Shown one piece after another: positions 46,083-60,918 of a DNA stretch of 64,000 nucleotides. Position numbers and translations under genes: made by a program. Numbering within the stretch: the stretch's first letter is position 1; every line of letters begins with the position of its first letter. The stretch covers positions 21,275 to 85,274 of the forward strand of contig JANXVZ010000027.1 of assembly GCA_025351405.1 (NCBI GenBank). The letters run 5' to 3'. The DNA is from Sphingomonadales bacterium. GTDB taxonomy: Bacteria; Pseudomonadota; Alphaproteobacteria; Sphingomonadales; Sphingomonadaceae. The notes below the pieces were generated by a model that was not told where the DNA came from, did not search any database, and saw nothing but the letters and a program-made list of their open reading frames with translations.

Positions 46083-46112
46083 CCGGGCTCGGCCTCCCGG
46101 CCTGAACCGCTT

Positions 46113-46143
46113 GCCGCCCGGCATTTACAGCTGCACGGGCGGC
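46113..46143. terminator. GC-rich hairpin between convergent genes (possible bidirectional terminator)
   Basis: GCCGCCCG(GCA)...(TGC)ACGGGCGGC inverted repeat between stops at 46082 and 46151. Confidence 0.45.
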
Positions 46144-46150
46144 GGGACGA

Positions 46151-48040: not shown

Positions 48041-48255
48041 CAGTGTCCCCCTCGATTTGCCCTCGCAAACCCGGGGCCTCCACCAAACATGACCAAACGC
48101 GCGCCCAGATCAACCCCCCCAACCGACGCGGTTGTTCCGGGGCCGGACAAGCGCCGATCCTCATGTCTCTTGATGACGAAATCGATCCGGATCAGCAGAT
48201 TTCGCTGCTGCACATCGACGGTGCAGGACGGCTGGCGCGGGTGCGGCGCGAGCGA

Positions 48256-48528
48256 TCAGCGCTTGTCGTCGCCCGACCTTGTATCCCCGCCACCGGTACG
48301 GGTGTCACCGCCGCCCGATCGCGTATCGCCGCTGCCGGTGCGGGTGTCACCACCCCCGGAGCGGGTGCCGTCGCTGGTGACGGCGGGTTCGGCGGGCGGG
48401 GCTTCCGCCGCCGGGGCCACCGCTTGTTCCGAAGCCGTGGCGTCGGTCGGCGGGGCCGGGGCCTTTTGTTTGCCACACGCCGAAAGCGGCAGCGCTGCAA
48501 CGACGGCGATGGCAAGAATTGCACGCAT
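48256..48528 (-). CDS. Small lipoprotein (90 aa) with C-terminal [S/T]G[G/S]GDTR repeats
   Basis: AAAGGT RBS, lipobox LSAC, Pro/Ala linker, then a repeat tail. Confidence 0.75.
   Translation of the reverse strand: MRAILAIAVVAALPLSACGKQKAPAPPTDATASEQAVAPAAEAPPAEPAVTSDGTRSGGGDTRTGSGDTRSGGGDTRTGGGDTRSGDDKR
48259..48375 (-). repeat. 21-bp (7-aa) tandem coding repeat: four full units at 48277-48360 plus degenerate flanks
   Basis: Encodes SDGTR-SGGGDTR-TGSGDTR-SGGGDTR-TGGGDTR-SGDDKR, with synonymous codon differences between units. Confidence 0.9.
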
Positions 48529-48574
48529 TGTCGGACCTTTCATTGCGGCCCCCGGCCGTTCACGATTGTGAAAG

Positions 48575-50506
48575 CTATGCCAAACCCATCCGGCCTAGCA
48601 ACCGGTTATATCGGGCATCGTTCCGAAGTGGCGCGAACATCGGGTCGATGAGCGTCGAGGCCATGCCGCCATCGCGGATGTCATAGGCGCGTTCCAGCGC
48701 CGCAAAGGCATCCTCCGTGCGGCCCCATTGTGCCAGCACCTGGGCCTGCTGATAGCTGGCGTTGTCGCCGTGCAGCGTAACCAGTTCCGTCAATGCCGCT
48801 TCGGCTGCCGGCCGGTTGCCAAGCTTGTGGTCGACGATCGCCAGACCGGCCAGCCGCAATATCGGCAAAGGCTCGGCGGCAAAGGCGGTGCGGGCCGCCG
48901 AAGCATCGGCCAGCATCAACTGGGCAAAACCGATCTGGGAATGCGCAGAAGACAGCTTCGCGTTCATCGCCAGCGCCTGTTCTGCCCGCGCCACTGCACT
49001 CCGGTAATTGCCTGTGGCAAGTTCGATGGCGGAATCGGCACGAAAGGTGCGGGGATTGAGCGGGTCGAGCTGTTCGGCGTGGACGATCACCCGGCGCGCA
49101 TCCTCGCCGCGCCCCGCCTTGGCAGTAAAATAGGCGTACATCAGCAGGATATCGGCATCCCCCTGTCCCAGGGCAAAGGCACGGTCATACGCGGTGCGCG
49201 AGCCCCTGAAGTCGAGAAAGCCGTTGAGGGTGGCATAGCCCAGCGCAAGATGTGCCGCGGCGAGGTCGGGTGCCAGCGCCACCGCCCGCTGTGCGGCAGC
49301 AACCGCCGCGCCGTAGGTATCGACGATGCGGTCTGCCTTGGCGTACAGGCTGGCGATCCCGGCCAGGGAGCGCGAGCGCGCCGCATGGGCGGCGGCAAAA
49401 CCGGGGTCGAGCGATATGGCTTCGTCGAAGCGCGCCAGCGCGGCGCGATCCGCGCTCTCGCCGGCGTCGCCGTTGAACAACGCCCGCCCGCGCAGGAAAG
49501 CGTCATAGGCGGCAACGACAGTGGTTCCGCCGGGGGCCTTGCCGCCCGCCGTGGTGACATGACTGAGCAGCGCGCTGGCGACGGTGACCGCAATCTCGCT
49601 CTGCAATGCGAAAATGTCATCGAGCTTGCGGTCGAAACTTTGCGACCAGCTGGCAAAGCCGGCCGCCACATCGGTCAACGTCACATCGATGCGGACAAGG
49701 TTGCCGGATTTTCGCACATTGCCGTCGAGCAGATAGCCGACGCCGAGCTTGCGGGCGATCTCCCGTGCATCTTCCTTGTGATCGCGAAACTCGTTCGACG
49801 ATGTCGGCGCGGCGACCTTCAGCCCGGCGACGCGGACGAGGGCCGCACGAACCTCCTCGCAAAGACCCTCGGAGAAATAGTCCTGGCTCCTGTCGCCGCT
49901 GAGATTGGCAAAGGGCAGGACCGCCAGCGCATTCCTGACAACACCTTGCCGCCACGGCTTGATGGCGACCATGGCTGCGGCGGCTGCGAGCACGGCGACG
50001 CCGCCACCCCCGGCAATCAGCGCGCGGCGGGAAACCCAGGTTCGCGCCACTGGGGCGGAATATTCGAGGTCGACGGTGTCTGCAGCGGCTGCGATGCCGC
50101 GCTCAAGGCTGGCGAACTCGGCAGCGTCGGCTCGCCTGTTCCAGCGCGACAGGTCGATCGTGTGATATTGCCGAAAGCCCAGGGGCGGTTCCGCGCCATC
50201 GATGGTGACGGGCACCAGCCGCTTGCGATCGCGGGCATGGGCAGCCTCGTCGCGCACCCAGTCCGATGCGACCGAATTTGCGGACCAGACGACGATCACG
50301 GCTTCGGCTGCGGCAAGCTTGCCCTCGATGGTCCTGGCAAAGGCCGCGCCGCCCGCGATCAATGCGTCCCACCACAGCGGGTAGCCGGCAACGATGAGCG
50401 CATCGACCAGCGGACGCACCTTTTCACGGTCAGCGCGAGCATAGCTGACGAACAGGCCCGGTTTGACAGCCACCATCGCATCCTGGTCGTTGGCCGTGAC
50501 CTTCAC
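48575..50506 (-). CDS. TIR domain - TM - TolB-N-like - TPR protein
   Basis: TIR motifs LFVSYARAD, WWD, VIVVWSANSVASDWVRDEA (catalytic-type Glu); hydrophobic helix ALIAGGGGVAVLAAAAAMVAI; LAVLPFANLSGD...YFSEG; TPR helices. Alternative ATG at 50476. Confidence 0.9.
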   Translation of the reverse strand: MKVTANDQDAMVAVKPGLFVSYARADREKVRPLVDALIVAGYPLWWDALIAGGAAFARTIEGKLAAAEAVIVVWSANSVASDWVRDEAAHARDRKRLVPVTIDGAEPPLGFRQYHTIDLSRWNRRADAAEFASLERGIAAAADTVDLEYSAPVARTWVSRRALIAGGGGVAVLAAAAAMVAIKPWRQGVVRNALAVLPFANLSGDRSQDYFSEGLCEEVRAALVRVAGLKVAAPTSSNEFRDHKEDAREIARKLGVGYLLDGNVRKSGNLVRIDVTLTDVAAGFASWSQSFDRKLDDIFALQSEIAVTVASALLSHVTTAGGKAPGGTTVVAAYDAFLRGRALFNGDAGESADRAALARFDEAISLDPGFAAAHAARSRSLAGIASLYAKADRIVDTYGAAVAAAQRAVALAPDLAAAHLALGYATLNGFLDFRGSRTAYDRAFALGQGDADILLMYAYFTAKAGRGEDARRVIVHAEQLDPLNPRTFRADSAIELATGNYRSAVARAEQALAMNAKLSSAHSQIGFAQLMLADASAARTAFAAEPLPILRLAGLAIVDHKLGNRPAAEAALTELVTLHGDNASYQQAQVLAQWGRTEDAFAALERAYDIRDGGMASTLIDPMFAPLRNDARYNRLLGRMGLA

Positions 50507-50536
50507 CCCGATTGCCCCTGAATCCCAACAACGGTT

Positions 50537-51586
50537 CTAGTGTGTCGTTACGGGGTTGGAAAGCTTTGCTCCGGCATCCCTGATCCAGTCCCGATAGGCC
50601 GATACATTGGTGTAGATGGCCGGTGTATCGGGCAGCGCGCAGCCGCGCCCCCACGACACCAGGCCAACCAGCACCCGCTCGCTGCCCTGCGCTCTCGTCA
50701 TCGGCCCGCCGCTGTCGCCGTTGCAACTGTCGACCCCGGGGCGGTCGGACACAGCGCATACCGTCTGTGCGACAGCACGGTCGCGGTAGTTGGGCAGCGC
50801 CGCGCAGGCCGGGTCCTGCGGGGTCTGGTTGATCTGCATCAGGATCGGCGACATGTGGTTGAGCGTCTTGCCGTCGCGCGCCATCTCGCCGCCGCCTGAA
50901 TCGCGCGCCAGCGTCCGGCCCCAGCCGGTGATGCGCAGGCGGTCACCCTGGCCTAGCGGCACATCACCGGGGCGCGAGCCAAGGATGCGGATCCGCGCCT
51001 GTTCCCGCCGGAAACGCCGCGCCGGCGCGTTGTCCGCGGCGATCCGCAGGATGGCAATATCGTTCAGCGGCGGATCACCGCGCACATAGCCGGGATGTTG
51101 CTGCCATGCGACAATGCGAAAGGTCACGCCGTTGTTCTTCAGGTTCTGGGTCCCCATCCGGACGCCGCGCGCCGTTCCAAAGCCCGCGACATTGTCCAGA
51201 CAATGGGCAGCCGTGAGCACGAGATCGCCGCCGATATATACGCCACCGCAGCGGTGGGCGATTTCCCATTTTTCCTTCTCTGCAAGATGGAAGCATCCCT
51301 TGCCGGGCTTGCAGTCGTCGGCGATCTCCTGCGGCGTGTAGACATGGGTCGAATAGATCTGCACTTGCCAGGGGGCGCTGCCTGCGGGCGCCGCCGAACC
51401 GCCGACGATGCGGCCTTCTCCCTCCGGGCTTTCGGGCGGAGCGGGGGTGGCAGCGGGAGTGGCAGGGGGCGCCTCCGGGGCCGCTGCCCCTGCAGGCTCT
51501 GCTGCTGGCTGCGCAGCCGCTGCCGGCGCCAGGCAGGCAAGCGCCGACCAGGCCAGCGTCACCGAGGCAAGGACCAGATATTTCAT
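50537..51586 (-). CDS. Exported trypsin-like serine protease (S1) zymogen
   Basis: Signal peptide, Pro/Ala propeptide, R|IVGG, HRCGG, LTAAHC, NDIAIL and DSCNGDSGGP; GLVSWGRGC. Confidence 0.93.
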   Translation of the reverse strand: MKYLVLASVTLAWSALACLAPAAAAQPAAEPAGAAAPEAPPATPAATPAPPESPEGEGRIVGGSAAPAGSAPWQVQIYSTHVYTPQEIADDCKPGKGCFHLAEKEKWEIAHRCGGVYIGGDLVLTAAHCLDNVAGFGTARGVRMGTQNLKNNGVTFRIVAWQQHPGYVRGDPPLNDIAILRIAADNAPARRFRREQARIRILGSRPGDVPLGQGDRLRITGWGRTLARDSGGGEMARDGKTLNHMSPILMQINQTPQDPACAALPNYRDRAVAQTVCAVSDRPGVDSCNGDSGGPMTRAQGSERVLVGLVSWGRGCALPDTPAIYTNVSAYRDWIRDAGAKLSNPVTTH

Positions 51587-53601
51587 GGCGGTGACCCCTT
51601 TCGCATGACCAGTGCGTCTTCGATCGTGACGGTCCAGTCGCCCAGCGTCGGCAGGCCGCCATCGCGGGCGCCGCTGCCGCCATTGGTGCAGACGCCGCGC
51701 GCTTCGGCCTCGGTATCGCACGGCCCCGACATGCGGCGGCGCATCGGTGGCTGCTCCAGGGCTGCCACATTGATCGGCGCGTCGGTCGCCAGAATCACAA
51801 ATCGGTATAGCCCGGTGGTGTTGAGCGCAAAGGGGCCGGGCCGTTGCGCGGCACCCCCGGGCATCGGCGGATCCTTGCCATGCGCGGTCGGAATCAACTG
51901 GGTGATCCCGTACCGATTGTCGATGACCAGCACCGAGATATAGCGCGCCGCGGCGCCTTTGTTGGTCACAGTGAGGACCAGCGGGGTATCGACGGGCACA
52001 CGGCGTTGTTTGTCGACAGGTTCGGGGCAGGTCTGGAGCGGATGATCGAGCCGGGTCGAAAGGCACAGGGCAAGCCCGGCCTGTTCAGCGCTGCCGGACG
52101 CCAGCGAGACCAGGCGCTGGGCATTGTATGCCGGCAGCAGCGCCATCCGCAGCTGTTCGGCAAGATCCGGCTCGGTGACAGGGCCAATTGTGGCGAGGCC
52201 GTCGCCATCACCCGAATTCAGGTAGACCGGAACATCATCCGCGGTGCCACGACGCAGCAGATTGAACTGGGCCGAGGACCCGGCAGTGACGACGTCGACA
52301 AAGCCCAGCGAGGCGAGCGCCTTTCTGAGCCGGCTCTGGTCCGGTGGGGTTGCTTCGGATACCGAGGCTTTTAGCCGGTCGTTGCCGAAGGCATGGGCGG
52401 TTTCACGCCCAACCAGTATCGGCGGGAGCGGGCGTTCCGGTTGGCTGTCGAGGCTCAACCGGGCCTGCCCGTCGGTGATCACGGTCACTGTCGCCAGCGC
52501 CAGCGGCTTGGCTGCATCGTTCAGCGCGTCGGCCTGGTTCGCGAACAGGGCGAATTTCGATCCGACGCTCATCCCCAGCAGCCGCCCGGCGGCGAGGGCG
52601 ATGCCGTCGGTCCCGGCTTCGGCATCGAACAAGGCGACGCCGATCGCCTCCCCGCCGAAACGCGCCTGGAGTGCGCCTTCGGCCTGCGGATGCTGGCGCT
52701 TGTGGCCGCCCTGTTCCACCCTCAGCCGCACGGCGGTGGCGATATCCCCAAAGGTTGCGTCCGGCCGGGCGACAAGCGCCTGGGCAAAGGCAGTGGTGAA
52801 GACGCCATGGACACTGGCGCCCGCGACGACCTCTCGGGCTTCCTCGTCGTCGCGGGAGGCGCCGAAATGAACGCGGTAGCCGCCGCCGGGACCGACAGCC
52901 GCCAGATCCGGGCGGAAATCGGCGTGATGCCCGATCGAGACGCCCTTGACGCCGCGATTGAAGCCTTCGCCGGCCTCGCCGCGCGTAGCGGTGCCTGAGT
53001 TGCACGAATCGAAGATGGTCACGACATTGACGCCGCGGGCGCTGGCGACATCGATGATGCGGCGGATCTCGCGATCGACGATGTCGGCCGCGGCGGTGGC
53101 ATCCGGGTTGCGCGCATCGGTCGGCAGGATGGTGCTGTCCACCCCGGAGGCCTGGTCGAAAACCTGGTCGTCGGCGATGGTCGAGCCGTGCCCTGCGAAA
53201 TAGAAGATCACCGTGTCACGCGGTGCCGAAGCGGCGATCAGGCTGGTCAGTGACGCGAGGATCTGCTTGCGCGTGGCGCAGCCGTCGGTGAGCGTGATCG
53301 AAAGCCCATTCGACGTCGCGCACTTGCCCGGCACCGCCGTATCGAACGACAGGCGATAGGCAATCGCCAGGGCCTGCTTGATTGCCTGGGCGTCCGACAC
53401 GGCCCCCCGCAAATCGCCGAAATCCGCATCGGGATAGGCAGGTCGCCGTGAAAACTGGTATTTGTCGATCCCGACGAACAGCCCGCGGATTGCCGGAGCG
53501 GCGTGCCCGTTCTGTGCGGCCGACGCGGCCGGGGAGGTCTGTGCGGCCGGCGCGGCGGCCGATGCCAGCAAAAGCGGCAGCGTGAGCCACAGCCGCTTCA
53601 C
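51583..53601 (-). CDS. Exported caspase-family (C14) protease with C-terminal DUF4384-like domain
   Basis: Signal peptide, GLFVGIDKY, DLRGAVSDA, IFYFAGHGS (His), IFDSCNSG (Cys) and HGVFTTAF. GTGA and ATGA overlaps with its neighbours. Confidence 0.9.
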   Translation of the reverse strand: MKRLWLTLPLLLASAAAPAAQTSPAASAAQNGHAAPAIRGLFVGIDKYQFSRRPAYPDADFGDLRGAVSDAQAIKQALAIAYRLSFDTAVPGKCATSNGLSITLTDGCATRKQILASLTSLIAASAPRDTVIFYFAGHGSTIADDQVFDQASGVDSTILPTDARNPDATAAADIVDREIRRIIDVASARGVNVVTIFDSCNSGTATRGEAGEGFNRGVKGVSIGHHADFRPDLAAVGPGGGYRVHFGASRDDEEAREVVAGASVHGVFTTAFAQALVARPDATFGDIATAVRLRVEQGGHKRQHPQAEGALQARFGGEAIGVALFDAEAGTDGIALAAGRLLGMSVGSKFALFANQADALNDAAKPLALATVTVITDGQARLSLDSQPERPLPPILVGRETAHAFGNDRLKASVSEATPPDQSRLRKALASLGFVDVVTAGSSAQFNLLRRGTADDVPVYLNSGDGDGLATIGPVTEPDLAEQLRMALLPAYNAQRLVSLASGSAEQAGLALCLSTRLDHPLQTCPEPVDKQRRVPVDTPLVLTVTNKGAAARYISVLVIDNRYGITQLIPTAHGKDPPMPGGAAQRPGPFALNTTGLYRFVILATDAPINVAALEQPPMRRRMSGPCDTEAEARGVCTNGGSGARDGGLPTLGDWTVTIEDALVMRKGSPP

Positions 53602-56600
53602 GGGCGCAGCCGTCGCAACACAAGCTGGCTGGCGGAGCCCGTGAAGTCGAACAGCGACGGTTCCTGAACCGGGCGCCGCGCCGCGGTGCCATCGAGGAAA
53701 TCGACACCGCGCGCACCGCTCGGCGCGCCGGGGCGGCGCGCAATCCGGCTGTCCTGGCTCAGCATCGGCAGGCGATGCACGGCGTAACGCAGCCATTCGT
53801 CGAGTGTGATCGCGCCGTCGCCATTTTCATCGGCCATCCCGCCATTGGCAGTGATGCCTTCATCGGCAAGCGCATAGGTGAGCAACCCTTGCCCCAGGTT
53901 GGCGGATTCGAGCGCGATGTCGTCGGCCTGGGTCGCGGCCAGGATCCGCATCCGCTTGTCAAATGCCAGCTGGCCCAGGCCGCCGTCCCCCATCGGGCCA
54001 GGACGGAAACCGCCTGCATCGACGCTGGCGGCCGAATGACAGGCATCGATGATCATCGCCATCTCGCCGGCATCGATGCGTCGCAGAAAGCGCGACATCT
54101 CAAGCGTCGAGACAAACGACGCAACATCGGGCGCCAGGGTCGCGTCGGGCCAGCGTGCGTCGGTGGGCAGCAGGTAGAAATTGCCTTGCCGATCGGCCCA
54201 GCCATGGCCCGAAAATGAAATCAGCACGACATCGTCCGGCCCGGCGGCATCAAGCGTCGACGCATCGATGCCCCGCGCCTGCAGCCGCGCCAGTGCTTCA
54301 CGGCGGGGGCTTCCGCCAAGGATGCCGAAGACATCGGCCAGCGCCGCCCGTGTTATGTCCGGGCTGCCGGGCTTCCCGGTACCCGCCAGCACCAGCAGGT
54401 GGACATTTTCGGCATCGGGCAGCGTGGCCAGCCGCGCACCGATCAGCGCTGCATCGTCCGCGGCGAAATTGAGCCGGAGCCGGGGTTCGGCATAACCGTC
54501 GATGCCGATGGCCACGACAAAGATGCGCCGCCTTGACGTGGCGACGGACGGCGGCCGGTAGAGTTGCCGGGCGGTTTCGCTCTTAACCCGGTCCTCGTTG
54601 AAGGCATAGGCGGTGAATTCGACCGGTGCGCCGCTGGTGGAGACCCTGACCGGCAGGCGAATTCGCGCCACCCCATCCTTGCCGACAACCACCCGGTTTT
54701 CCTGCCGCCAGCGCTTCAGGTCGAACTGCAGCGCATCGGGAGCGCCGCCCGGCGACTGGGCAACGAGGCTGCCGTTGCGGAACAACCGCAGGTCGTACCC
54801 GTCGCTGTGCAACTTGCCGTTGGGCGCATCGGGACGCGATCCGGGGCGCAGTTCGAGACCGACAAGCACATTGCCGGGGGTCGCAGCCTTGGTGATGCCG
54901 GTAATCCGCACCGTCGGCAGCACCCGGTTGATATCGGCCAGCCGGGCGACGGGGCGAAACGCGCTGGCGCAGCTGTCGGTCAGCGTACAGGCCATCACGC
55001 GGGGTCCGAGCCGGGGCTCGAAGAAATTGCGCATGAAGGTCTGCGGCCCCAGCGACTGCAGCGGCGCGTCGGACACCACCCAGCGAAAGTCGCGGGTGTC
55101 GGCACCCAGGTCGGTATCATAGCGACCATCGGGGGCCATGGTGAAAAAGCTGCGATCATTCACGAGGTAGGTTCGCAACACCTCCGGGCTGGCAAAAGCG
55201 TCGTCGCGGCGGGGACGCCACAGGACGATGCCGTCGGTGTTGGTCACCACCCAGCGCAATGGACTGCCCGGGATCGCGCCTTCCGCCACGACATTCTTGA
55301 ACAACAGCCGTGATTCGCGCGCTCCGCCGGCTATGCTGACGGCACTGATCGGTTGATCGGCGATTTCGGCAAACCGTTCGTACCAGCTCTTGCCATCGCT
55401 GCTGACCGTTGCCCGGGCCAACGCCTCCACCGGCGGCGCATTTCCTTCAAGCGCGGTGAAAGGCGCGGCGGCCATCTCCCAGCGGTAAAACCTTCCGTCG
55501 CGGCTCAGCCCGACGGACTTGCTGTCCGCTGCAAATTCGATCACCGGATAGGTGCTCCCGTCCGGCAGCGCGGTCTCGGCGATCACGGTTCCGTCTTCTG
55601 TATCGATGGCGCGCACGAGATGGCTGCTTGTCGTCACGATCAGGCGCTTGCCGTCCGGCGTTGCCGCAAGCGTTTCGATAAAGGTGCCGCTCGCGTCGGC
55701 AGGCCCCAACGCCTGCCAGCCGGTTGCCGGATCATAGCGCTGCAGGCCTTGTTCCCCGCGGCCGTGCAAGGCGGTGCAGTTGCCGAGCCCGGCGCCGATG
55801 ATGACGCCGTTGCCAAGCGCCTGTGTGTAGCAGCGGAAGGGGATCAAATCCCCCGCCGCCTTGCCGGTGGACGCCGCGATCACCCGCGACACACCGGGCT
55901 TGCCCGCCTGGGCGGAATTGCGGTCCCCGCCGCTGTTGTCGCCCGGCAAAAGCACCTTCTCGTCATCCAGCCAGGTGACCGTCGAATGGAACCCCTCGAC
56001 CGTGACCCGGGATACGACGGCCCAGACGGCAAGATCGAACACCATGATACCGGACCGGCGTTGTTGCCCCGCGGTGGCGGGCGTCTGGGCGACGTCGAAA
56101 ATCAGCGCCATCCGCTTTCCATCGGGGGACAGTGCAGCGCCAAAGGCCATGGTCGGCTCGGGCTTGTCGAGCTTGCGCACCGGCCTGCCCCGCGCGTCCT
56201 CGATGACGAAGGGATAGTCGCCGACATCGATGCGAAGCTGGCCGTTGTGCGAAGCGATGACCCTGCCTTGCAATCCCGTCCCGATGCACGGCGCCATGGG
56301 CTCCCCTGTCTGGACCTGCCAGTCGCCGCCGCCGAGCGGCGGCAGGCGCATCGTCAGCGCGGTGCAAAAGCTGCTGTCGGTATCGCGAATGTTGGCCTTG
56401 ACCGTCAGGCCGGAGTTGTGATCGACCCTCGCGTCCCACGCCTCGATATTGGACTTCGGGTCAAAGGCGGGAAACGGGACAAGGTTGACGATATCGCCCG
56501 TCGCTGCATCCCACACCGTGACGCTGCGCACGAGGTTGTCGATGCCGATCACGAACCTATCATCCCGGCTCCAGGCGAAAACGGTCTGTGTCGGGATGGT

Positions 56601-56777
56601 GCGTTGCAGCACAAGCTTTGGGTAGGCCGCGTCACTGGGGGCAATCCGCTTGCCGACGTTTGCCGCGTCGCCCGCCGTGGCGGCCCTGGCGCATGGCGAG
56701 CAACCCAGGGTGAAGGCGATCACCAGCATGTTCGGGATGTTGTGCGCCCAATATGCCCTGCGGCGGATGCTGGCCAT
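53598..56777 (-). CDS. Beta-propeller (WD40/PD40-like) - caspase-family (C14) fusion protein, probable signal peptide
   Basis: Propeller repeats FAWSRDDR, ALSPDGKR, ATPDGKR and VSSDGK; FVVAIGIDGY; ISFSGHG (His); IIDACHSA (Cys); GLLTYAL; ADENGDGAITLDEW. Confidence 0.88.
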   Translation of the reverse strand: MASIRRRAYWAHNIPNMLVIAFTLGCSPCARAATAGDAANVGKRIAPSDAAYPKLVLQRTIPTQTVFAWSRDDRFVIGIDNLVRSVTVWDAATGDIVNLVPFPAFDPKSNIEAWDARVDHNSGLTVKANIRDTDSSFCTALTMRLPPLGGGDWQVQTGEPMAPCIGTGLQGRVIASHNGQLRIDVGDYPFVIEDARGRPVRKLDKPEPTMAFGAALSPDGKRMALIFDVAQTPATAGQQRRSGIMVFDLAVWAVVSRVTVEGFHSTVTWLDDEKVLLPGDNSGGDRNSAQAGKPGVSRVIAASTGKAAGDLIPFRCYTQALGNGVIIGAGLGNCTALHGRGEQGLQRYDPATGWQALGPADASGTFIETLAATPDGKRLIVTTSSHLVRAIDTEDGTVIAETALPDGSTYPVIEFAADSKSVGLSRDGRFYRWEMAAAPFTALEGNAPPVEALARATVSSDGKSWYERFAEIADQPISAVSIAGGARESRLLFKNVVAEGAIPGSPLRWVVTNTDGIVLWRPRRDDAFASPEVLRTYLVNDRSFFTMAPDGRYDTDLGADTRDFRWVVSDAPLQSLGPQTFMRNFFEPRLGPRVMACTLTDSCASAFRPVARLADINRVLPTVRITGITKAATPGNVLVGLELRPGSRPDAPNGKLHSDGYDLRLFRNGSLVAQSPGGAPDALQFDLKRWRQENRVVVGKDGVARIRLPVRVSTSGAPVEFTAYAFNEDRVKSETARQLYRPPSVATSRRRIFVVAIGIDGYAEPRLRLNFAADDAALIGARLATLPDAENVHLLVLAGTGKPGSPDITRAALADVFGILGGSPRREALARLQARGIDASTLDAAGPDDVVLISFSGHGWADRQGNFYLLPTDARWPDATLAPDVASFVSTLEMSRFLRRIDAGEMAMIIDACHSAASVDAGGFRPGPMGDGGLGQLAFDKRMRILAATQADDIALESANLGQGLLTYALADEGITANGGMADENGDGAITLDEWLRYAVHRLPMLSQDSRIARRPGAPSGARGVDFLDGTAARRPVQEPSLFDFTGSASQLVLRRLRP

Positions 56778-57052
56778 CACCGGACCCTTTCTGCCCTGAA
56801 GGTGCGGCTGAACCGACAGGGTGTCAATCAGCGCCGGTGGCCGCTGGCGGCGGCTTTCCATGCCGCCTCGATCCGGGCTCATGCGTCGTCAGCCGGTGCG
56901 GTGCGTCGCAAGCCCCGGTATGCCAACCGGGGAGGACGGTCTGCACCGCTATCGGCAGGATTTTGCGCTGGCGCTGCTGAACATGCTATCGCGCTTTGCC
57001 GACGGGCGGGATCGAAACGGGGGGATCGCGTAGTGCATCTGGTGGGGCATGA

Positions 57053-58777
57053 ATGACCGCTGAGCCATTGACCGTGGGAGTCACTGGCCATCGCCCGGCC
57101 CGGTTGGTCGGTGTCGACACTGCCGTTCTCGCAGCGCAGATCTGCGCGACGCTCGAGGCTTTTGCAGACGCTGCCGGCCATGATCGCAAATTCCGGCTGG
57201 TGAGCAGCCTCGCCGAAGGGGCCGACAGCATCGCCGCCGGGGTTGCACTGCAGATGGGTTGGCAACTCGACGTCACGCTGCCGTTCGATCGCGTTCGCAA
57301 TGCCCAGGACTTTCCGGATTCGGATGCGCTTGCAGCGCTCGATGCCTTACTCCTTCGTGCCGATTCCGTGTTCGAACTGTGCAGCGGTTGCCTCGAGGCC
57401 GAGCCGGCCAGCACGGCTTATGAACGCGCCGGCCGGGTCATGCTCGCGCAGTGCGATGTGTTGCTGGCCGTGTGGGATGGCAAGCCTGCCCAGGGGCGCG
57501 GCGGCGCCGCACAAATCGTCGCCGAGGCGGTGCTGCAGGGCGTGCCCGTCTTGCACGTCGCCCTGGCGGACGGTGCGCGGCCCTTGTTGTTATGGGACCG
57601 GCTGGACGAACATGACGTCGGGCAACACACGCTGGATACAATTCCCCGCGCGGGCCTTGAGCAGTTGCCGCGGCTGGTGGCGCATCTGCTTGGCGATGCC
57701 GACAGCGGTGCCTTGCCGCGCCACTACCGTGGCCGCCGACGCCTGACCGTCGCGGTGGCCTATGCAATGCTGATGGCGGTCATGGCCGTCCGGAGTTTGC
57801 GCGGCGCCGACTTTGTCAAAGCCGACCCGGATATCGCGCGGGACGCATTGCTGGCCGGATGTTCGGCGACCCGGCAAGCCACGCCGTTCGGCGAGCGGCT
57901 GACCCGCGTGCTCGCTCCAGGCTTTGGCTCGGCCGACGCCAGCGCCACCGATTTCTCGCGCCGTTTCCGCAGCGCCTATGTCGCCAACTTCGTCCTGGCG
58001 GCGCTCGCCGTCGTCACCGCCCTTGTCGGGCTGGCGCTGCCCAAGTCGGCCAAGCCGGGGCTGATCGTCATCGAACTCGCGATCGTCGCGACGATCCTGA
58101 TCGTCACGCGCATGGGCAACAAATCGGGCTGGCACCGGAGCTGGCTGAGCAGCCGCCAGGTTGCCGAGCAATTGCGCTGCCTGGCGATCACGGCGCAGCT
58201 TGGCGATCTGCGGCTGCGGGCCAATACCCATCCAACCACCCGCAACGTGGCGCGGCAGCTCGGGCTGCCAAATGCCATCGCCGATGCGCCCTATCTGGCG
58301 GCAATTCAGGCAGATCTGGGCCGATTGATCGATTCGCAGATCGACTATCTGGAGCGCGACGCCAGCGTTATGCATCGGCTGGAGCATCGCCTGCACCGGC
58401 TCGGCGGCTTGCTCTTCCTCGCCACGGCCACGATCTGCCTTCTCTACCTGGCTGCCGAGGTGGCCATCATGGCCAATCCGGCGTGGCACCATATCGTCGA
58501 GCCGGTGCTGATCTGGGGGACCATATTGAGCGCGGGGTTCCCTGCGATCGGGGCAGCCATCTACGGTATTCGCATGCAGGGCGACTTCAGCGGCTCGGGT
58601 GAACGAAACGCCGCCCTTGCCGCCGAACTTCGCCGGGTTCGCCAGCTTACGCAGAAGACACCCCAAACCTATGATACGCTTGCCCGGCACGCGAAGATCG
58701 TCGCGGACCTGATGGTCGCCGATCTGACCGATTGGTTCCGGGCGTACAAGGCGCGGCCGCTCGCTCTGCCCGGTTGA
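57053..58777 (+). CDS. SLOG (YspA/DprA-LOG-like) domain fused to two SLATT/DUF4231-like two-TM modules
   Basis: VGVTGHR, SSLAEGAD, YERAG and DVLLAVWDG...GRGG...VPVLHV in the SLOG domain; two hydrophobic hairpins followed by W...R..AEQLR and QIDY...GIRMQGDF motifs. Confidence 0.78.
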   Translation: MTAEPLTVGVTGHRPARLVGVDTAVLAAQICATLEAFADAAGHDRKFRLVSSLAEGADSIAAGVALQMGWQLDVTLPFDRVRNAQDFPDSDALAALDALLLRADSVFELCSGCLEAEPASTAYERAGRVMLAQCDVLLAVWDGKPAQGRGGAAQIVAEAVLQGVPVLHVALADGARPLLLWDRLDEHDVGQHTLDTIPRAGLEQLPRLVAHLLGDADSGALPRHYRGRRRLTVAVAYAMLMAVMAVRSLRGADFVKADPDIARDALLAGCSATRQATPFGERLTRVLAPGFGSADASATDFSRRFRSAYVANFVLAALAVVTALVGLALPKSAKPGLIVIELAIVATILIVTRMGNKSGWHRSWLSSRQVAEQLRCLAITAQLGDLRLRANTHPTTRNVARQLGLPNAIADAPYLAAIQADLGRLIDSQIDYLERDASVMHRLEHRLHRLGGLLFLATATICLLYLAAEVAIMANPAWHHIVEPVLIWGTILSAGFPAIGAAIYGIRMQGDFSGSGERNAALAAELRRVRQLTQKTPQTYDTLARHAKIVADLMVADLTDWFRAYKARPLALPG

Positions 58778-58812
58778 AATCGGCCAGGACGGAGCCGCCG
58801 GCCACATACGCT

Positions 58813-60663
58813 TTATTGCGGCTGGTCGCCGGGCTTTCGTTCCTTCCGTGCCGCCTTCTGCGCCTCGATCTTGGCGGCCTGGCTTGCCTGCACCTCCGTC
58901 TGGTGCTGCGCCTGCACCTCGGCGCGTTGCTTGTCGCGTGCCGCGGCAGCTGCGACGCGGGTCGCGTCCGCCTGCTTCTGGCGCTCGACAGCCGCTGTCG
59001 CCCGCGCCGCCTCCATCGCTTTTTGCTTTTCTGCGTCCGCCTGCTGGCGCTGGGCACCGGCCGCGGTCTTGGCGTCTTCGCGTGACTTGGCGGCGGCTGC
59101 ATCGCGCTGAACCTTGGCGGCGGTTGCGGCCTCGGCCCGTTGCGCAGCCTGGGCGTCGCGCGCTTTCGCTGCCTCGGCGCGCGCACGCTCCTGTTTCGCC
59201 AGATTTTCCGTCACCGCCTGCTGATGCGTGGCTTCGGCCGCCGTGCGAGCGGCCTCCTGGTGCTTGAGGCGTTCGGCCGCGGCGAGCTGGCGCTGGGCAT
59301 CGGCATTGGTCCTGGCTTCGTCGCGCGCCTTGGCCACTGCCGCATCGCGCTGTGCCTTGGCCGTTGCGGTCGCCGCGGCCGCTGCCTGGGCCTGCTGTGC
59401 CAGCTGCGCGTCATGGGCCTTGGCAGCTTCGGCGCGGGCACCATCCTGTCGCTGCTGGCGGGTGATCGCCGCATCGCGCTCGGCCCTGGTGCGGGCAGCC
59501 TCGGCCATTGCGCGGCTCTGGGCGCGGCTCTGGGCGCCGCTCTGGACACCACTCTGGGCGAGAGCGTCCTGCGCAGCCTGTCGTTGGCGAGCCGCATCCT
59601 GGGCACGCTGGGCGTCGAGCCCGGCTTGCCGCCGTTGGGCGTCAGTTGCGGCTTGGGCCTGTGCGATTTGGGCTTGTGCGATCTGGGCCGACTGGGCGGC
59701 AGCCCCGCGAGCCGCCGCGGCGCGCGCCTCGGCATCGGCCTGCTGCTGGCGAAAGCGCATGTCGTCACGCCCACCTGGCGCAAGCCCGCGGTCGTCACGG
59801 TGGTCGCGATCGCGGGTCAGGGCAATCGCTGCCGCGCCGGCGCCGACCCCGATTGCGGCAGCATAGGCCGTCCGGCGGTCACGCTCTGCCCGCCAGTCGC
59901 GTTGCTCGCTGTCGCGATTTGCATCGTAATAGGCCTGGCGCTCGGCATCCCGGGCGCGGGCCTCGTCGTAGGCGCGCTGGCGCTCCAGCACCGCTTCGCG
60001 ACGCGCACGCCAGTCGGCGGCATAGGCAGCCTGGCGTTGCTCGTTGAATGCAGCACGATGGAGGGCGCGGGCGCGGTCGAGATAACGCCCCGCTGCATCG
60101 GCGCGGCGCTGGGCATATACATCGTCGAGCGGCGCGCCGTCGCGGCCATAAACCCCGACAAGTTCGCCGTCATCATAGGCATAGCTGCCGTCTGGGTCGC
60201 TGACATAGAAGGGCTGGTCGGCGCCGGGCTGGTAGTAATATTCACGCTGGCCCTGCGGCAATACCTCGACCACACGAGTACCGCCGTTGTCGCCGCGCCA
60301 TACCCATGGGCGCGTGCCCTGGTAATCGACCGTGTAGTCGGGGGGCGTATCGCCGAAGGCCTGACCCATCGCATGGGCACGGTCGGCATAGCGATAGCGA
60401 TCGTTGCGGGGCCTGGCCTTGATCCGGATTGCCTGGGCGGGGGCCGGCAAGGCAGCGGCGACCGGTGCGGCGACCAGCGGTACGGGCGGTGCGGCGGTCG
60501 CGAGCGGCAACGCGGCCAATGGCGGCGCACTGACCGGCTGGGTGCCGGTCTCGGCAGTGGCGGCAGGCGCCGTGGACGGAGACTTGTCGCAGGCGCTGAG
60601 CACCAGCGCGAAGGCCGTCGCGGCAAGTGCGAGGCGGGAAACGTTCAAGCGGCGGTCGGTCAT
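58813..60663 (-). CDS. Lipoprotein with small globular domain and long Ala/Gln/Arg-rich TolA-like helical tail
   Basis: Lipobox VLSAC, Pro/Ala linker, Tyr-rich domain (WVWR...EYYYQPG...PFYV), and a charged low-complexity tail with an internal duplication. Confidence 0.75.
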   Translation of the reverse strand: MTDRRLNVSRLALAATAFALVLSACDKSPSTAPAATAETGTQPVSAPPLAALPLATAAPPVPLVAAPVAAALPAPAQAIRIKARPRNDRYRYADRAHAMGQAFGDTPPDYTVDYQGTRPWVWRGDNGGTRVVEVLPQGQREYYYQPGADQPFYVSDPDGSYAYDDGELVGVYGRDGAPLDDVYAQRRADAAGRYLDRARALHRAAFNEQRQAAYAADWRARREAVLERQRAYDEARARDAERQAYYDANRDSEQRDWRAERDRRTAYAAAIGVGAGAAAIALTRDRDHRDDRGLAPGGRDDMRFRQQQADAEARAAAARGAAAQSAQIAQAQIAQAQAATDAQRRQAGLDAQRAQDAARQRQAAQDALAQSGVQSGAQSRAQSRAMAEAARTRAERDAAITRQQRQDGARAEAAKAHDAQLAQQAQAAAAATATAKAQRDAAVAKARDEARTNADAQRQLAAAERLKHQEAARTAAEATHQQAVTENLAKQERARAEAAKARDAQAAQRAEAATAAKVQRDAAAAKSREDAKTAAGAQRQQADAEKQKAMEAARATAAVERQKQADATRVAAAAARDKQRAEVQAQHQTEVQASQAAKIEAQKAARKERKPGDQPQ

Positions 60664-60918
60664 CGGATGTCCAGTCGGTTGTGCAAAATCTCTAACGCAC
60701 ACTGCGCGCGTTCGGATGAACACGGCGCGAACGGTGGCGCAGATGATAGTTCAATTGGCCCATGCGGATCCGCGCATTCTGTGGAGCAACCAAGCGTCCG
60801 GTCGACCACCACATCGCTGGAATTGCGTCGATAAAGTGGATTGCCGGGTTGCTTCGTTTGCCCGGCGCAATACTCTGTCCGCCAGGCGTTGCCGGGTTCA
60901 ACGTGAGGGAGTTTCGTC

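What the first reader, a model, noticed from the sequence alone, without database searches (positions are those of the whole stretch)
48256..58777. Candidate Toll-like system: exported caspase-caspase-trypsin cascade, membrane TIR-TPR receptor, repeat lipoprotein and divergent SLOG-SLATT effector
Seen: five co-oriented minus-strand genes. Propeller-caspase, caspase and trypsin are joined by GTGA/ATGA overlaps; a 30-60 nt gap leads to TIR-TM-TPR; a 46 nt gap leads to the repeat lipoprotein. All proteases have catalytic residues and signal-like N-termini, and the TIR keeps its Glu. A SLOG-SLATT gene is transcribed divergently from the shared intergenic region. Known: bacterial TIRs make NAD-derived signals sensed by SLOG domains (Thoeris); SLATT domains are predicted membrane effectors; protease cascades occur in antiviral systems; in Drosophila an extracellular serine-protease cascade matures a ligand for a TIR receptor. 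Inference: an envelope-damage or infection-sensing pathway in which periplasmic proteolysis activates a transmembrane TIR, whose signal gates the SLOG-SLATT protein. I know of no description of this combination.
Basis: partly seen in the sequence, partly recalled or inferred. Interest (0 to 1): 0.88.

Follow-up and report, generated by a model that had tools for sequence, protein, structure and literature searches.

The report
Membrane TIR receptor with protease-peptide input
A sphingomonad chromosome carries a conserved six-gene set in which exported proteases, a small protein made of Arg-ended peptide repeats and a membrane-spanning TIR receptor appear to control a nucleotide-sensing membrane protein, a layout that recalls animal Toll signalling and has not been tested experimentally.

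Summary
Five co-oriented minus-strand genes and a divergent SLOG-4TM gene are present, with intact catalytic residues, signal peptides and the stated overlaps.

Comparative genomics shows a real module. In 80 related loci the TIR-TM-TolB-like-TPR gene is followed by a small ORF. In 49 of these the ORF carries at least four tandem hexapeptide repeats, each ending in Arg. An exported trypsin lies next to it in 66 loci, SLOG-SLATT in 25 and caspases in 10.

SLOG-SLATT always sits beside a membrane TIR-TPR gene. The window's genome has exactly one of each. Exported repeat precursors go with zymogen-type trypsins (8/8), and caspase loci always have the R|IVGG zymogen site (10/10).

Best reading (about 0.5): periplasmic proteolysis of the repeat protein gates the TIR receptor, whose NAD-derived product acts on the YpsA-like SLOG domain of a 4-TM effector.

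The TIR-effector half is Thoeris-like. A "SLOG and 4TM" pairing is listed, unvalidated, in a 2025 preprint. I found no description of the protease and repeat-peptide input.

The trigger, the direction of control and the biological role (defence or envelope/kin signalling) remain open. The caspases are accessory, not core.

The parts
53598..56777 (-). Exported WD40-propeller-caspase, 1059 aa. It has a signal peptide at aa 1-33, an all-beta propeller region at about aa 65-550, a beta-sandwich at about aa 620-760 and a caspase domain at about aa 785-1010. H858 lies at 54204-54206 and C913 at 54039-54041.
   Evidence: ORF and junctions. PADLOC caspase 2.9e-12. NCBIfam caspase_w_EACC1 5e-9. Invariant His and Cys in 9 orthologues. 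AF2 and Foldseek hits to tandem WD40 propellers. Signal peptides in orthologues.
51583..53601 (-). Exported caspase (C14), 672 aa. Its GTG start overlaps the upstream stop (GTGA). H138 lies at 53188-53190 and C200 at 53002-53004. The C-terminal half of about 350 aa matches no family but has conserved Cys pairs.
   Evidence: Pfam Peptidase_C14 3.6e-14. Invariant H138 and C200 in 11 sequences. Signal peptides in all orthologues.
50537..51586 (-). Exported trypsin-family zymogen, 349 aa. It has a signal peptide, an Ala/Pro-rich propeptide and a predicted activation site EGEGR59|I60VGG (R at 51410-51412). The catalytic triad is H128, D176, S292. The S1 residue is Asp286 (50729-50731), which predicts Arg/Lys specificity.
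   Evidence: Pfam Trypsin 2.3e-35. Motifs. ATGA overlap. A propeptide with R|IV(G/K)G is present in all 10 caspase-bearing loci.
48575..50506 (-). Single-pass TIR receptor, 643 aa. The cytoplasmic TIR is at aa 18-135, with E87 at 50246-50248. The TM helix is at aa 164-185. The periplasmic TolB-N-like domain is at about aa 190-310, followed by TPR repeats to the C-terminus.
   Evidence: Pfam TIR_2 2.5e-22 and TPR hits. NCBIfam TolB N-terminal region 0.011 and TPR_END_plus 2.6e-8. One hydrophobic segment. Invariant SDWVRDEA. At least 2981 homologues. The ectodomain is shared with wHTH-TM regulators.
48256..48543 (-). Small lipoprotein, 95 aa, with Cys23 in the lipobox LSAC. Its C-terminal tail (48259-48378) consists of six Arg-terminated units: SDGTR, SGGGDTR, TGSGDTR, SGGGDTR, TGGGDTR, SGDDKR. 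The stop codon follows directly. It is the candidate multi-copy peptide precursor or trypsin substrate.
   Evidence: Translation. The units differ by synonymous codons. The DNA repeat is only 69-81% identical. The same type of ORF follows the TIR gene in 49 of 80 related loci.
57053..58777 (+). SLOG-4TM (SLATT-like) protein, 574 aa. The cytoplasmic YpsA-like SLOG domain is at aa 5-180. Two TM hairpins lie at about aa 305-357 and 450-507. It is the predicted nucleotide-gated membrane effector.
   Evidence: AF2 pLDDT 85.6, pTM 0.84. Foldseek hits: YpsA 2nx2, DprA, ShosA, TM1055, TRPM2/4. Weak SLATT and DUF4231 hits at aa 291-378. Four TM segments. It is the only copy in the genome.
56778..57052 (.). 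Divergent intergenic region between the protease-TIR operon and the SLOG-4TM gene.
   Evidence: Sequence. The promoter scan gave nothing above chance.

Best explanation
This is an envelope-spanning TIR signalling module. I describe it in four steps and mark each as shown or inferred.

Step 1 (inferred). In the periplasm a trypsin-family protease with an Asp S1 pocket cuts the small repeat protein after each Arg. This changes what the receptor's TolB-like/TPR ectodomain sees. Either free hexa- or heptapeptides such as SGGGDTR are released, or a multivalent ligand is destroyed.

Step 2 (inferred). In this window the precursor is an exported lipoprotein, so control sits on the protease. The trypsin is a zymogen with the site EGEGR|IVGG. 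Two exported caspase-family proteases lie upstream. One carries WD40 propellers as a possible sensor, and both are predicted to act upstream of the zymogen. Related caspase-like enzymes cut after Arg.

Step 3 (inferred from family knowledge). A change in ectodomain occupancy alters the oligomeric state of the cytoplasmic TIR domain, whose catalytic Glu is intact. The TIR then makes an NAD-derived nucleotide.

Step 4 (inferred). That nucleotide binds the cytoplasmic YpsA-like SLOG domain of the 4-TM SLATT-like protein, which perturbs the inner membrane and causes growth arrest or death.

Shown here: gene content, catalytic residues, predicted topology, folds, and conserved linkage and co-variation.

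Not shown: every biochemical step, the trigger, and the sign of each regulatory step.
For: Linkage:
- Anchoring on the TIR receptor in 80 species-level loci, ORF clustering finds only four conserved partners: trypsin (66 loci), SLOG-SLATT (25), caspase (10) and propeller-caspase (8).
- With adequate flanks, trypsin is adjacent in 55 of 63 loci and SLOG-SLATT in 15 of 42.
- On the TIR tree, SLOG-SLATT adjacency changes at least 6 times and caspase presence at least 5 times. This argues for selection on linkage rather than one inherited arrangement.
- In Polymorphobacter the SLOG-SLATT orthologue (66% identity) is co-directional downstream of the operon rather than divergent.

TIR to SLOG-SLATT:
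- The window's genome has exactly one TIR_2 gene and one SLOG-SLATT gene.
- In a 201-genome sample of the order, 14 of 15 genomes with a TIR-receptor orthologue also have a SLATT-family match.
- In 10 of 10 places where SLOG-SLATT lies away from this receptor, it sits beside another membrane TIR-TPR gene.
- Six loci from more distant genera again hold TIR receptor, protease and SLOG-SLATT within about 5-7 kb.
- The SLOG fold is confirmed.
- TIR+SLATT pairs are validated defence systems that signal with cADPR (type VII Thoeris).

Protease and repeat protein:
- In 49 of 80 loci the ORF after the TIR gene has at least four Arg-terminated repeats and ends exactly on Arg.
- The window's units keep the peptide while varying codons.
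- An Asp S1 pocket goes with Arg repeats in 41 of 50 loci, against 0 of 11 for non-Asp S1.
- Lipoprotein-type precursors pair with zymogen-type trypsins in 8 of 8 loci. Leaderless precursors pair with trypsins lacking the IVGG N-terminus in 37 of 37. All three phylogenetically independent contrasts are concordant.
- All 10 caspase-bearing loci have the R|IV(G/K)G zymogen site, against 3 of 55 others.
- In one locus a CHAT protease replaces the trypsin in the same position.

Receptor nature: the ectodomain is shared with wHTH transmembrane regulators.
Against: - There is no experimental datum for any step.
- About half of the related loci encode the repeat protein without any export signal, while their trypsin and the TPR domain are periplasmic. 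A simple 'exported precursor to ligand' scheme cannot be general.
- The co-variation statistics are inflated by shared ancestry. There are only 3 independent contrasts for precursor type against zymogen type (sign test p = 0.25) and 1 for S1 residue against repeats.
- Some caspase-bearing loci (L015, L028, L056, L057, L070) have a lipoprotein with few or no Arg-ended repeats.
- SLATT membership rests on below-threshold hits.
- Two 'SLOG and 4TM' Thoeris candidates tested in E. coli gave no phage defence.
- The module sits among housekeeping-type genes. It was found on only one megaplasmid or chromid and in no phage record. This fits a physiological signalling role as well as immunity.
Confidence: 0.5

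Rival explanations
1. Tether or guard model, with the sign reversed. The outer-membrane-anchored lipoprotein's multivalent repeat tail binds the TPR ectodomains and either clusters or restrains the receptors. The proteases normally trim it. Signalling starts when proteolysis fails or when the envelope geometry is disturbed. Possible causes are protease inhibitors, envelope damage or phage entry. The downstream TIR to SLOG-4TM step is the same.
For: - No lipoprotein in the family has Asp at +2 after the lipid Cys, so outer-membrane anchoring is likely.
- Tandem identical units make a multivalent ligand.
- TIR enzymes are generally activated by oligomerisation (family knowledge).
- The linkage evidence for the best explanation fits this model equally.
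Against: - Leaderless precursors cannot act as envelope tethers.
- The ORF ends exactly on the last Arg, which suggests that the free peptide with a C-terminal Arg is the functional unit.
- Zymogen control of the trypsin fits activation-on-demand better than constitutive trimming.
Confidence: 0.2
2. Same wiring, non-immune role. The module is a peptide-based kin, lysis-alarm or envelope-stress signalling pathway. The TIR product acts as a second messenger and SLOG-4TM as a regulated channel rather than a suicide effector.
For: - The module is chromosomal with housekeeping-type neighbours, and no phage record matches.
- Hexapeptide sequences are species-specific but homogeneous within each protein, as in pheromone systems.
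- Cytosolic leaderless precursors would be released on lysis.
- The ectodomain is shared with ordinary wHTH regulators.
- The tested 'SLOG and 4TM' systems gave no defence in E. coli.
Against: - The distribution is patchy, about 7% of genomes in the order, and the module moves between contexts, as defence systems do.
- TIR+SLATT pairs that have been tested are anti-phage systems.
- SLATT proteins are known as cell-killing effectors.
Confidence: 0.2
3. The TIR domain is itself the effector, depleting NAD+. SLOG-4TM is a separate or merely regulatory neighbour, and the proteases only mature or turn over the receptor ectodomain.
For: - Many bacterial TIR proteins are NADases.
- SLOG-SLATT is adjacent in only about a third of loci.
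Against: - SLOG-SLATT is never found without a membrane TIR-TPR neighbour in the places examined.
- The genome-wide co-occurrence is 14 of 15.
- The YpsA-like SLOG fold is a nucleotide-binding module.
Confidence: 0.07
4. Chance neighbourhood. The proteases are ordinary periplasmic peptidases next to an unrelated TIR gene.
For: Other exported peptidases (S15, S9) lie immediately downstream in the window.
Against: - Trypsin is adjacent to the TIR receptor in 66 of 80 loci and the caspases in 10, in different genomic contexts.
- Translational coupling is seen here (GTGA and ATGA overlaps).
- The S15 and S9 peptidases are not conserved neighbours.
Confidence: 0.03

Closest known systems
Putative Thoeris configuration 'SLOG and 4TM' / '4TM SLOG' (bioRxiv 10.64898/2025.12.03.692087, Tables S1 and S2). 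It is predicted only. The two systems tested in E. coli gave no defence.
   Same: A TIR gene is paired with an effector that joins a SLOG domain to four TM helices.
   Different: - The TIR here shows no significant similarity to the two listed TIR domains.
- It is a single-pass membrane protein with a TolB-like/TPR ectodomain.
- The conserved repeat protein and exported proteases are not mentioned in that work. 'Trypsin' and 'periplasm' have zero occurrences in its text and held tables.
Type VII Thoeris (ThsB TIR + ThsH SLATT effector; the signal is canonical cADPR)
   Same: A TIR enzyme is coupled to a SLATT-type membrane effector, and the signal is a nucleotide made in the cytoplasm.
   Different: - ThsH is described as a SLATT protein without a SLOG sensor.
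- The system is described as a two-gene operon triggered by phage infection inside the cell.
- Here the input side is extracytoplasmic and includes proteases.
Type I Thoeris (ThsB TIR + ThsA SIR2-SLOG; 3'cADPR binds the SLOG domain)
   Same: The logic is the same: a TIR product is read by a SLOG domain.
   Different: - The effector domain is a membrane hairpin pair, not SIR2.
- The SLOG here is YpsA-like by fold.
- No sequence-level match to ThsA models was found.
Type IV Thoeris (TIR + caspase-like effector ThsE)
   Same: TIR and caspase-family proteases occur in one system. ThsE is assayed with an Arg-P1 substrate, EEKAR-AMC.
   Different: Both caspases here have signal peptides. They lie on the opposite side of the membrane from the TIR product, so they must act upstream of or beside the receptor, not as nucleotide-activated effectors.
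Drosophila Toll pathway (serine-protease zymogen cascade, Spaetzle cleavage, Toll receptor with cytosolic TIR). This is an analogy, not homology.
   Same: - An extracytoplasmic trypsin-fold zymogen has an Arg|IVGG activation site.
- Proteases lie upstream of it.
- A small secreted protein looks built for cleavage.
- The receptor is single-pass with a cytosolic TIR.
   Different: - The ectodomain is TolB-like plus TPR, not LRR.
- The candidate ligand is a low-complexity repeat lipoprotein, not a cystine knot.
- The upstream proteases are caspase-fold.
- The TIR is probably an enzyme rather than an adaptor scaffold.
- The resemblance is most likely convergent.
RRNPP peptide signalling (TPR receptors that bind protease-matured oligopeptides) and multi-copy prohormones such as yeast alpha-factor
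   Same: A TPR sensor is encoded next to a small precursor. Tandem identical peptide units are separated by basic cleavage sites.
   Different: RRNPP receptors are cytosolic and need peptide import. Peptide binding has not been shown here.

Membership tests
Thoeris (TIR-signalling defence systems, general) | TIR-domain protein with the catalytic Glu | tested here: met
   TIR_2 at 2.5e-22. E87 in SDWVRDEA is invariant in 16 homologues.
Thoeris (TIR-signalling defence systems, general) | Linked effector gene with a nucleotide-sensing domain | tested here: met
   YpsA-like SLOG fold. Linkage and co-occurrence.
Thoeris (TIR-signalling defence systems, general) | The TIR makes an NAD-derived signal on infection, and the system protects against phage | not testable with these tools
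   This needs LC-MS and phage assays. The two 'SLOG and 4TM' candidates gave no defence in E. coli.
Type VII Thoeris (ThsB + ThsH) | The effector is a SLATT-domain protein | tested here: inconclusive
   DUF4231 at 2e-4 (22.1 bits against a cutoff of 24.7). SLATT_1 at 2.8e-4 (20.8 against 41). SLATT_3 at 6.7e-3. All three hit aa 291-378. No solved SLATT structure was available for comparison. hhalign gives no support for the second hairpin being a repeat of the first.
Type VII Thoeris (ThsB + ThsH) | Two-gene operon without further conserved partners | tested here: not met
   The repeat protein and the trypsin are conserved partners.
'SLOG and 4TM' putative Thoeris configuration | Effector with SLOG plus four TM helices | tested here: met
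'SLOG and 4TM' putative Thoeris configuration | The TIR belongs to the same TIR cluster as the listed examples | tested here: not met
   BLASTP against the two listed TIR domains gave E of 0.059 or worse, and only outside the TIR domain.
Type IV Thoeris (TIR + ThsE caspase-like effector) | The caspase-like protease is a cytosolic effector activated by the TIR product | tested here: not met
   Both caspases and all their orthologues carry N-terminal signal peptides.
Peptidase family S1 (trypsin) | His-Asp-Ser triad, and Asp at the base of S1 for Arg/Lys specificity | tested here: met
   TAAHC, NDIAIL, GDSGGP and DSCNGD motifs. Pfam 2.3e-35.
Peptidase family C14 (caspase / metacaspase / orthocaspase) | His-Cys catalytic dyad in a caspase fold | tested here: met
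   AGHG/DSCNS and SGHG/DACHS motifs are invariant in orthologues. Pfam and PADLOC hits. P1 specificity was not tested.
SLOG superfamily (YpsA / DprA / LOG) | Rossmann-like SLOG fold | tested here: met
   Foldseek: YpsA 2nx2 at E 7.3e-5, probability 1.0, TMt 0.71. DprA, ShosA, TM1055 and TRPM2/4 follow. No sequence-profile hit was found.
Toll / Spaetzle pathway (homology) | LRR ectodomain, cystine-knot ligand, clip-domain proteases | tested here: not met
   The ectodomain is TolB-like plus TPR, the candidate ligand is a low-complexity lipoprotein, and the upstream proteases are caspase-fold. Only the logic is shared.

The most novel reading that the evidence does not exclude
This would be a bacterial counterpart of Toll signalling. 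An extracytoplasmic zymogen cascade runs from caspase-fold proteases to a trypsin. The trypsin matures identical Arg-ended peptides from a multi-copy precursor. The peptides are read by the TPR ectodomain of a single-pass TIR receptor. The receptor's nucleotide product gates a SLOG-4TM membrane effector.

In the commoner leaderless variant, the cytosolic precursor and the periplasmic, IVGG-less trypsin would meet only after membrane breach or kin lysis. The precursor often starts with an IVGG-like N-terminus. The module would then be a danger or lysis sensor, perhaps with trans-activation of the protease by the precursor's N-terminus.
Probability: 0.3. Interest if true: 0.92.

Novelty: new variant of a known kind. 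Interest (0 to 1): 0.8.

Why it matters
Known bacterial TIR systems (Thoeris) sense infection inside the cell. This module would show that bacteria also build receptor-type TIR proteins that listen to the periplasm through regulated proteolysis of a dedicated peptide precursor. It would then be the closest functional parallel so far to the Toll logic of animals.

It offers several things:
- A defined, testable ligand candidate: heptapeptides such as SGGGDTR.
- A bacterial trypsin zymogen with a eukaryote-style Arg|IVGG switch.
- A role for exported caspase-family proteases, whose function in bacteria is largely unknown.
- A natural experiment that separates control by zymogen from control by compartment, in the lipoprotein and leaderless precursor variants.

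It would also give a function to a large, unnamed family. The protein search found at least 2981 TIR-TM-TPR relatives.

Tried and rejected
- The PADLOC scan of all six proteins matched only generic TIR and caspase models, with no named system.
- A profile search of SLOG-4TM against PDB sequences found nothing meaningful. Pfam at E up to 10 on the SLOG region alone gave no hit.
- hhalign of the two TM hairpins against each other gave probability 0.2, so 'tandem SLATT' is not supported by sequence.
- The promoter and terminator scan of 47900-59000 gave counts at chance level.
- The S1 residue against Arg-repeat association (Fisher 4e-7) rests on one independent contrast. I do not count it as strong evidence.
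- The idea that SLOG-SLATT copies away from the receptor are orphans was rejected. Each has its own membrane TIR-TPR neighbour.
- Plasmid or phage carriage was rejected. There is one full-length hit, on a 1.8-Mb replicon, and no phage hit.
- Burroughs et al. 2015 (NAR), which defined SLOG and SLATT, is not held in the library. Whether it depicts this architecture could not be checked.

Full report
**What is in the window**

Between 48256 and 58777 there are five co-oriented minus-strand genes and one divergent plus-strand gene.
- The stop of the first gene overlaps the GTG start of the second (GTGA).
- The stop of the second overlaps the ATG of the third (ATGA).
- The gap to the TIR gene is 30 nt, or 60 nt with the next ATG.
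- The gap to the small lipoprotein gene is 31 nt, or 46 nt with the second Met.
- The region has the same G+C content (0.66-0.68) as its surroundings.

**Domain content**

- Pfam finds Peptidase_C14 (3.6e-14), Trypsin (2.3e-35), and TIR_2 (2.5e-22) with TPR repeats.
- Pfam finds nothing for the 1059-aa first protein. A PADLOC caspase model (2.9e-12) and an NCBIfam caspase model (5e-9) hit its C-terminus.
- The catalytic His and Cys of both caspases are invariant among orthologues.
- The trypsin has its full triad and an Asp at the base of S1, in DSCNGDSGGP.
- The TIR Glu in SDWVRDEA is invariant.
- Both caspases and the trypsin begin with signal peptides, here and in every orthologue examined.
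- The small protein has a canonical lipobox.
- An AF2 model of the first protein is of moderate confidence (pLDDT 68). It is all-beta over aa 65-550, and its best Foldseek matches are tandem WD40 propellers. 'Propeller-caspase' is therefore reasonable.
- The plus-strand protein models well (pLDDT 85.6, pTM 0.84). Its N-terminal domain matches YpsA, DprA, ShosA, a LOG-like protein and the TRPM2/4 N-terminus. This is the SLOG superfamily.
- Its membrane part has four hydrophobic helices. Only weak, below-threshold hits to SLATT_1, SLATT_3 and DUF4231 were found.

**Is it a unit?**

The TIR-TM-TPR protein has at least 2981 relatives, mostly from Sphingomonadales. I fetched 80 species-level loci anchored on it. 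I then looked for partners by tblastn with the window's proteins and, independently, by all-against-all clustering of ORFs in the flanks.

Only four gene families recur:
- trypsin, in 66 loci;
- SLOG-SLATT, in 25;
- caspase, in 10;
- propeller-caspase, in 8.

The arrangements differ. The trypsin is upstream and co-directional in caspase loci, and convergent downstream elsewhere. SLOG-SLATT is divergent, convergent or co-directional. On a tree of the TIR proteins, caspase presence changes at least 5 times and SLOG-SLATT adjacency at least 6 times. In Polymorphobacter the SLOG-SLATT orthologue (66% identity) follows the operon on the same strand.

**The TIR to SLOG-SLATT link**

- The window's genome is 98% complete. 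It has exactly one TIR_2 gene and one SLOG-SLATT gene, and both are in this cluster.
- In a 201-genome sample of the order, 15 genomes have a full-length orthologue of the receptor, and 14 of them have a SLATT-family match.
- Where SLOG-SLATT is not next to this receptor, it exists elsewhere in 12-13 of 15 genomes.
- In 10 of 10 such places it sits beside another membrane-anchored TIR-TPR gene. Three of these neighbours are TolB-like paralogues. Seven belong to a different TIR-1TM-TPR family.
- Six loci from more distant genera again hold receptor, protease and a divergent SLOG-SLATT within about 5-7 kb.

I take the pairing of a membrane TIR-TPR receptor with SLOG-SLATT as well supported.

**The small protein is the most informative part**

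In the window its tail reads SDGTR, SGGGDTR, TGSGDTR, SGGGDTR, TGGGDTR, SGDDKR, then stop. The units differ by synonymous codons, and the DNA repeat is only 69-81% identical. Selection therefore acts on the peptide.

In 49 of 80 related loci the ORF right after the TIR gene has at least four tandem units, mostly hexapeptides. Examples are TGDETR, GGDTRT, SSGDNR, GNPDNR, GSGDDR, GSDVDR and GDPGDR. The ORF ends exactly on the last Arg. Cleavage after Arg would therefore give identical peptides from every unit, including the last.

The partner trypsins have an Asp S1 pocket. The gammaproteobacterial relatives with Ser or Ala at that position have lipoproteins without Arg repeats. That contrast amounts to only one independent event.

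**Two variants and their co-variation**

- Lipoprotein-type (exported) precursors occur with trypsins that have a propeptide and an Arg|(I/V/T/A)(I/V)GG site, in 8 of 8 loci.
- Precursors with no signal peptide occur with trypsins that lack the IVGG segment altogether, in 37 of 37 loci.
- On the tree this amounts to three independent contrasts. All are concordant, but they are too few for significance.
- All 10 caspase-bearing loci have the zymogen-type trypsin, against 3 of 55 others.

This suggests two ways of keeping protease and substrate apart. With an exported substrate, the protease is a zymogen, and caspases can sit above it. Otherwise the substrate stays in the cytoplasm. In one locus a CHAT-OmpA protein replaces the trypsin at the same position, so a protease of either fold appears to be what is needed.

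**Mechanism proposed (all steps inferred)**

1. The caspase-family proteases activate the trypsin zymogen at R59|I60. Related caspase-like enzymes cut after Arg; the ThsE assay substrate is EEKAR-AMC.
2. The trypsin cuts the repeat tail.
3. The ectodomain of the receptor reads the result. This ectodomain is a sensor module also found on wHTH transmembrane regulators.
4. The cytoplasmic TIR makes an NAD-derived nucleotide.
5. The SLOG domain of the 4-TM protein binds that nucleotide, and the membrane part acts.

The sign of the ligand step is open. Peptide could be the activator, or the multivalent tail could cluster or restrain the receptors. The trigger is also open; the WD40 propellers are a candidate sensor.

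**What does not fit**

- Leaderless precursors cannot reach a periplasmic protease or the TPR domain by the Sec route.
- About half of them start M(V/I)(V/I)GG(K/R)P(V/I), which resembles the N-terminus of an activated S1 protease. Their partner trypsins are exactly those lacking that segment. This may point to trans-activation on membrane breach or lysis, but I could not test it.
- Several caspase loci have lipoproteins with few Arg repeats.

**Comparison with the literature**

- TIR+SLATT is type VII Thoeris, with cADPR as the signal.
- The same preprint lists 'SLOG and 4TM' as an untyped candidate. It gave no defence in E. coli in two cases.
- The window's TIR is not similar to those TIR domains.
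- Neither that preprint nor Kaur et al. 2020 mentions a membrane TIR with a periplasmic TPR domain, a trypsin partner or a repeat precursor, by text search.
- The 2015 paper that defined SLOG and SLATT was not available.
- Other agents of this scan reported similar four-gene modules in other genomes. I used those notes only as leads. One of them led me to check the preprint's tables.

**Verdict**

This is a real, conserved and experimentally untouched module. Its output half is a variant of Thoeris-type TIR signalling. I found no published description of its input half. The caspase cascade seen in this window is an elaboration found in a minority of loci.

Noticed in passing
L017, L019, L033, L036, L058, L059 and others (small ORF about 30-150 nt after the TIR gene): The leaderless repeat proteins have no signal peptide. 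About half begin M(V/I)(V/I)GG(K/R)P(V/I)xD, which resembles the IVGG N-terminus of an activated S1 protease. Their neighbouring trypsins are the ones that lack this segment. This might be a split zymogen kept apart by the inner membrane.
   Followed up: partly
L096:6209-8689 (-), L099:5215-9272 (+), L095:6671-8932 (-): In a more distant clade the protease next to the TIR receptor varies. It is a CHAT+OmpA protein (L096), two tandem trypsins (L099), or a 680-890 aa trypsin with a long N-terminal extension. This looks like in-situ displacement of the protease type.
   Followed up: partly
L088:11124-13271 (-), L090:6174-8222 (+), L092:10367-12220 (+): A second, unrelated family of TIR-1TM-TPR proteins lacks the TolB-like domain. 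It sits directly beside SLOG-SLATT genes in other Sphingomonadales, without an adjacent trypsin.
   Followed up: partly
window 44019-48040: Two further exported peptidases lie just downstream of the cluster: an S15 X-Pro dipeptidyl-peptidase (46151-48040, -) and an S9-like protein (44019-46082, +). They are not conserved neighbours of the module in other genomes.
   Followed up: partly
window 58813-60723 (-): A 636-aa ORF has a lipoprotein-like N-terminus (LSAC) and a long Ala/Gln/Arg-rich, probably coiled or low-complexity C-terminal half. It has no Pfam hit. The local G+C is 0.73 and the AT skew -0.45.
   Followed up: no
G004:C2:348098-349840 (also listed as G197; Sphingomonas cremea G124): The SLOG-SLATT copy of this genome contains one in-frame TAA. 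It may be a pseudogene or a sequencing error.
   Followed up: no
plasmid records H2-H10 (Azospirillum, Rhizobium, Sinorhizobium): The TolB-like plus TPR ectodomain (query aa 191-513, 33-39% identity) recurs on proteins annotated as winged-helix transcription regulators. It is therefore a reusable periplasmic sensor module with different cytoplasmic outputs.
   Followed up: no
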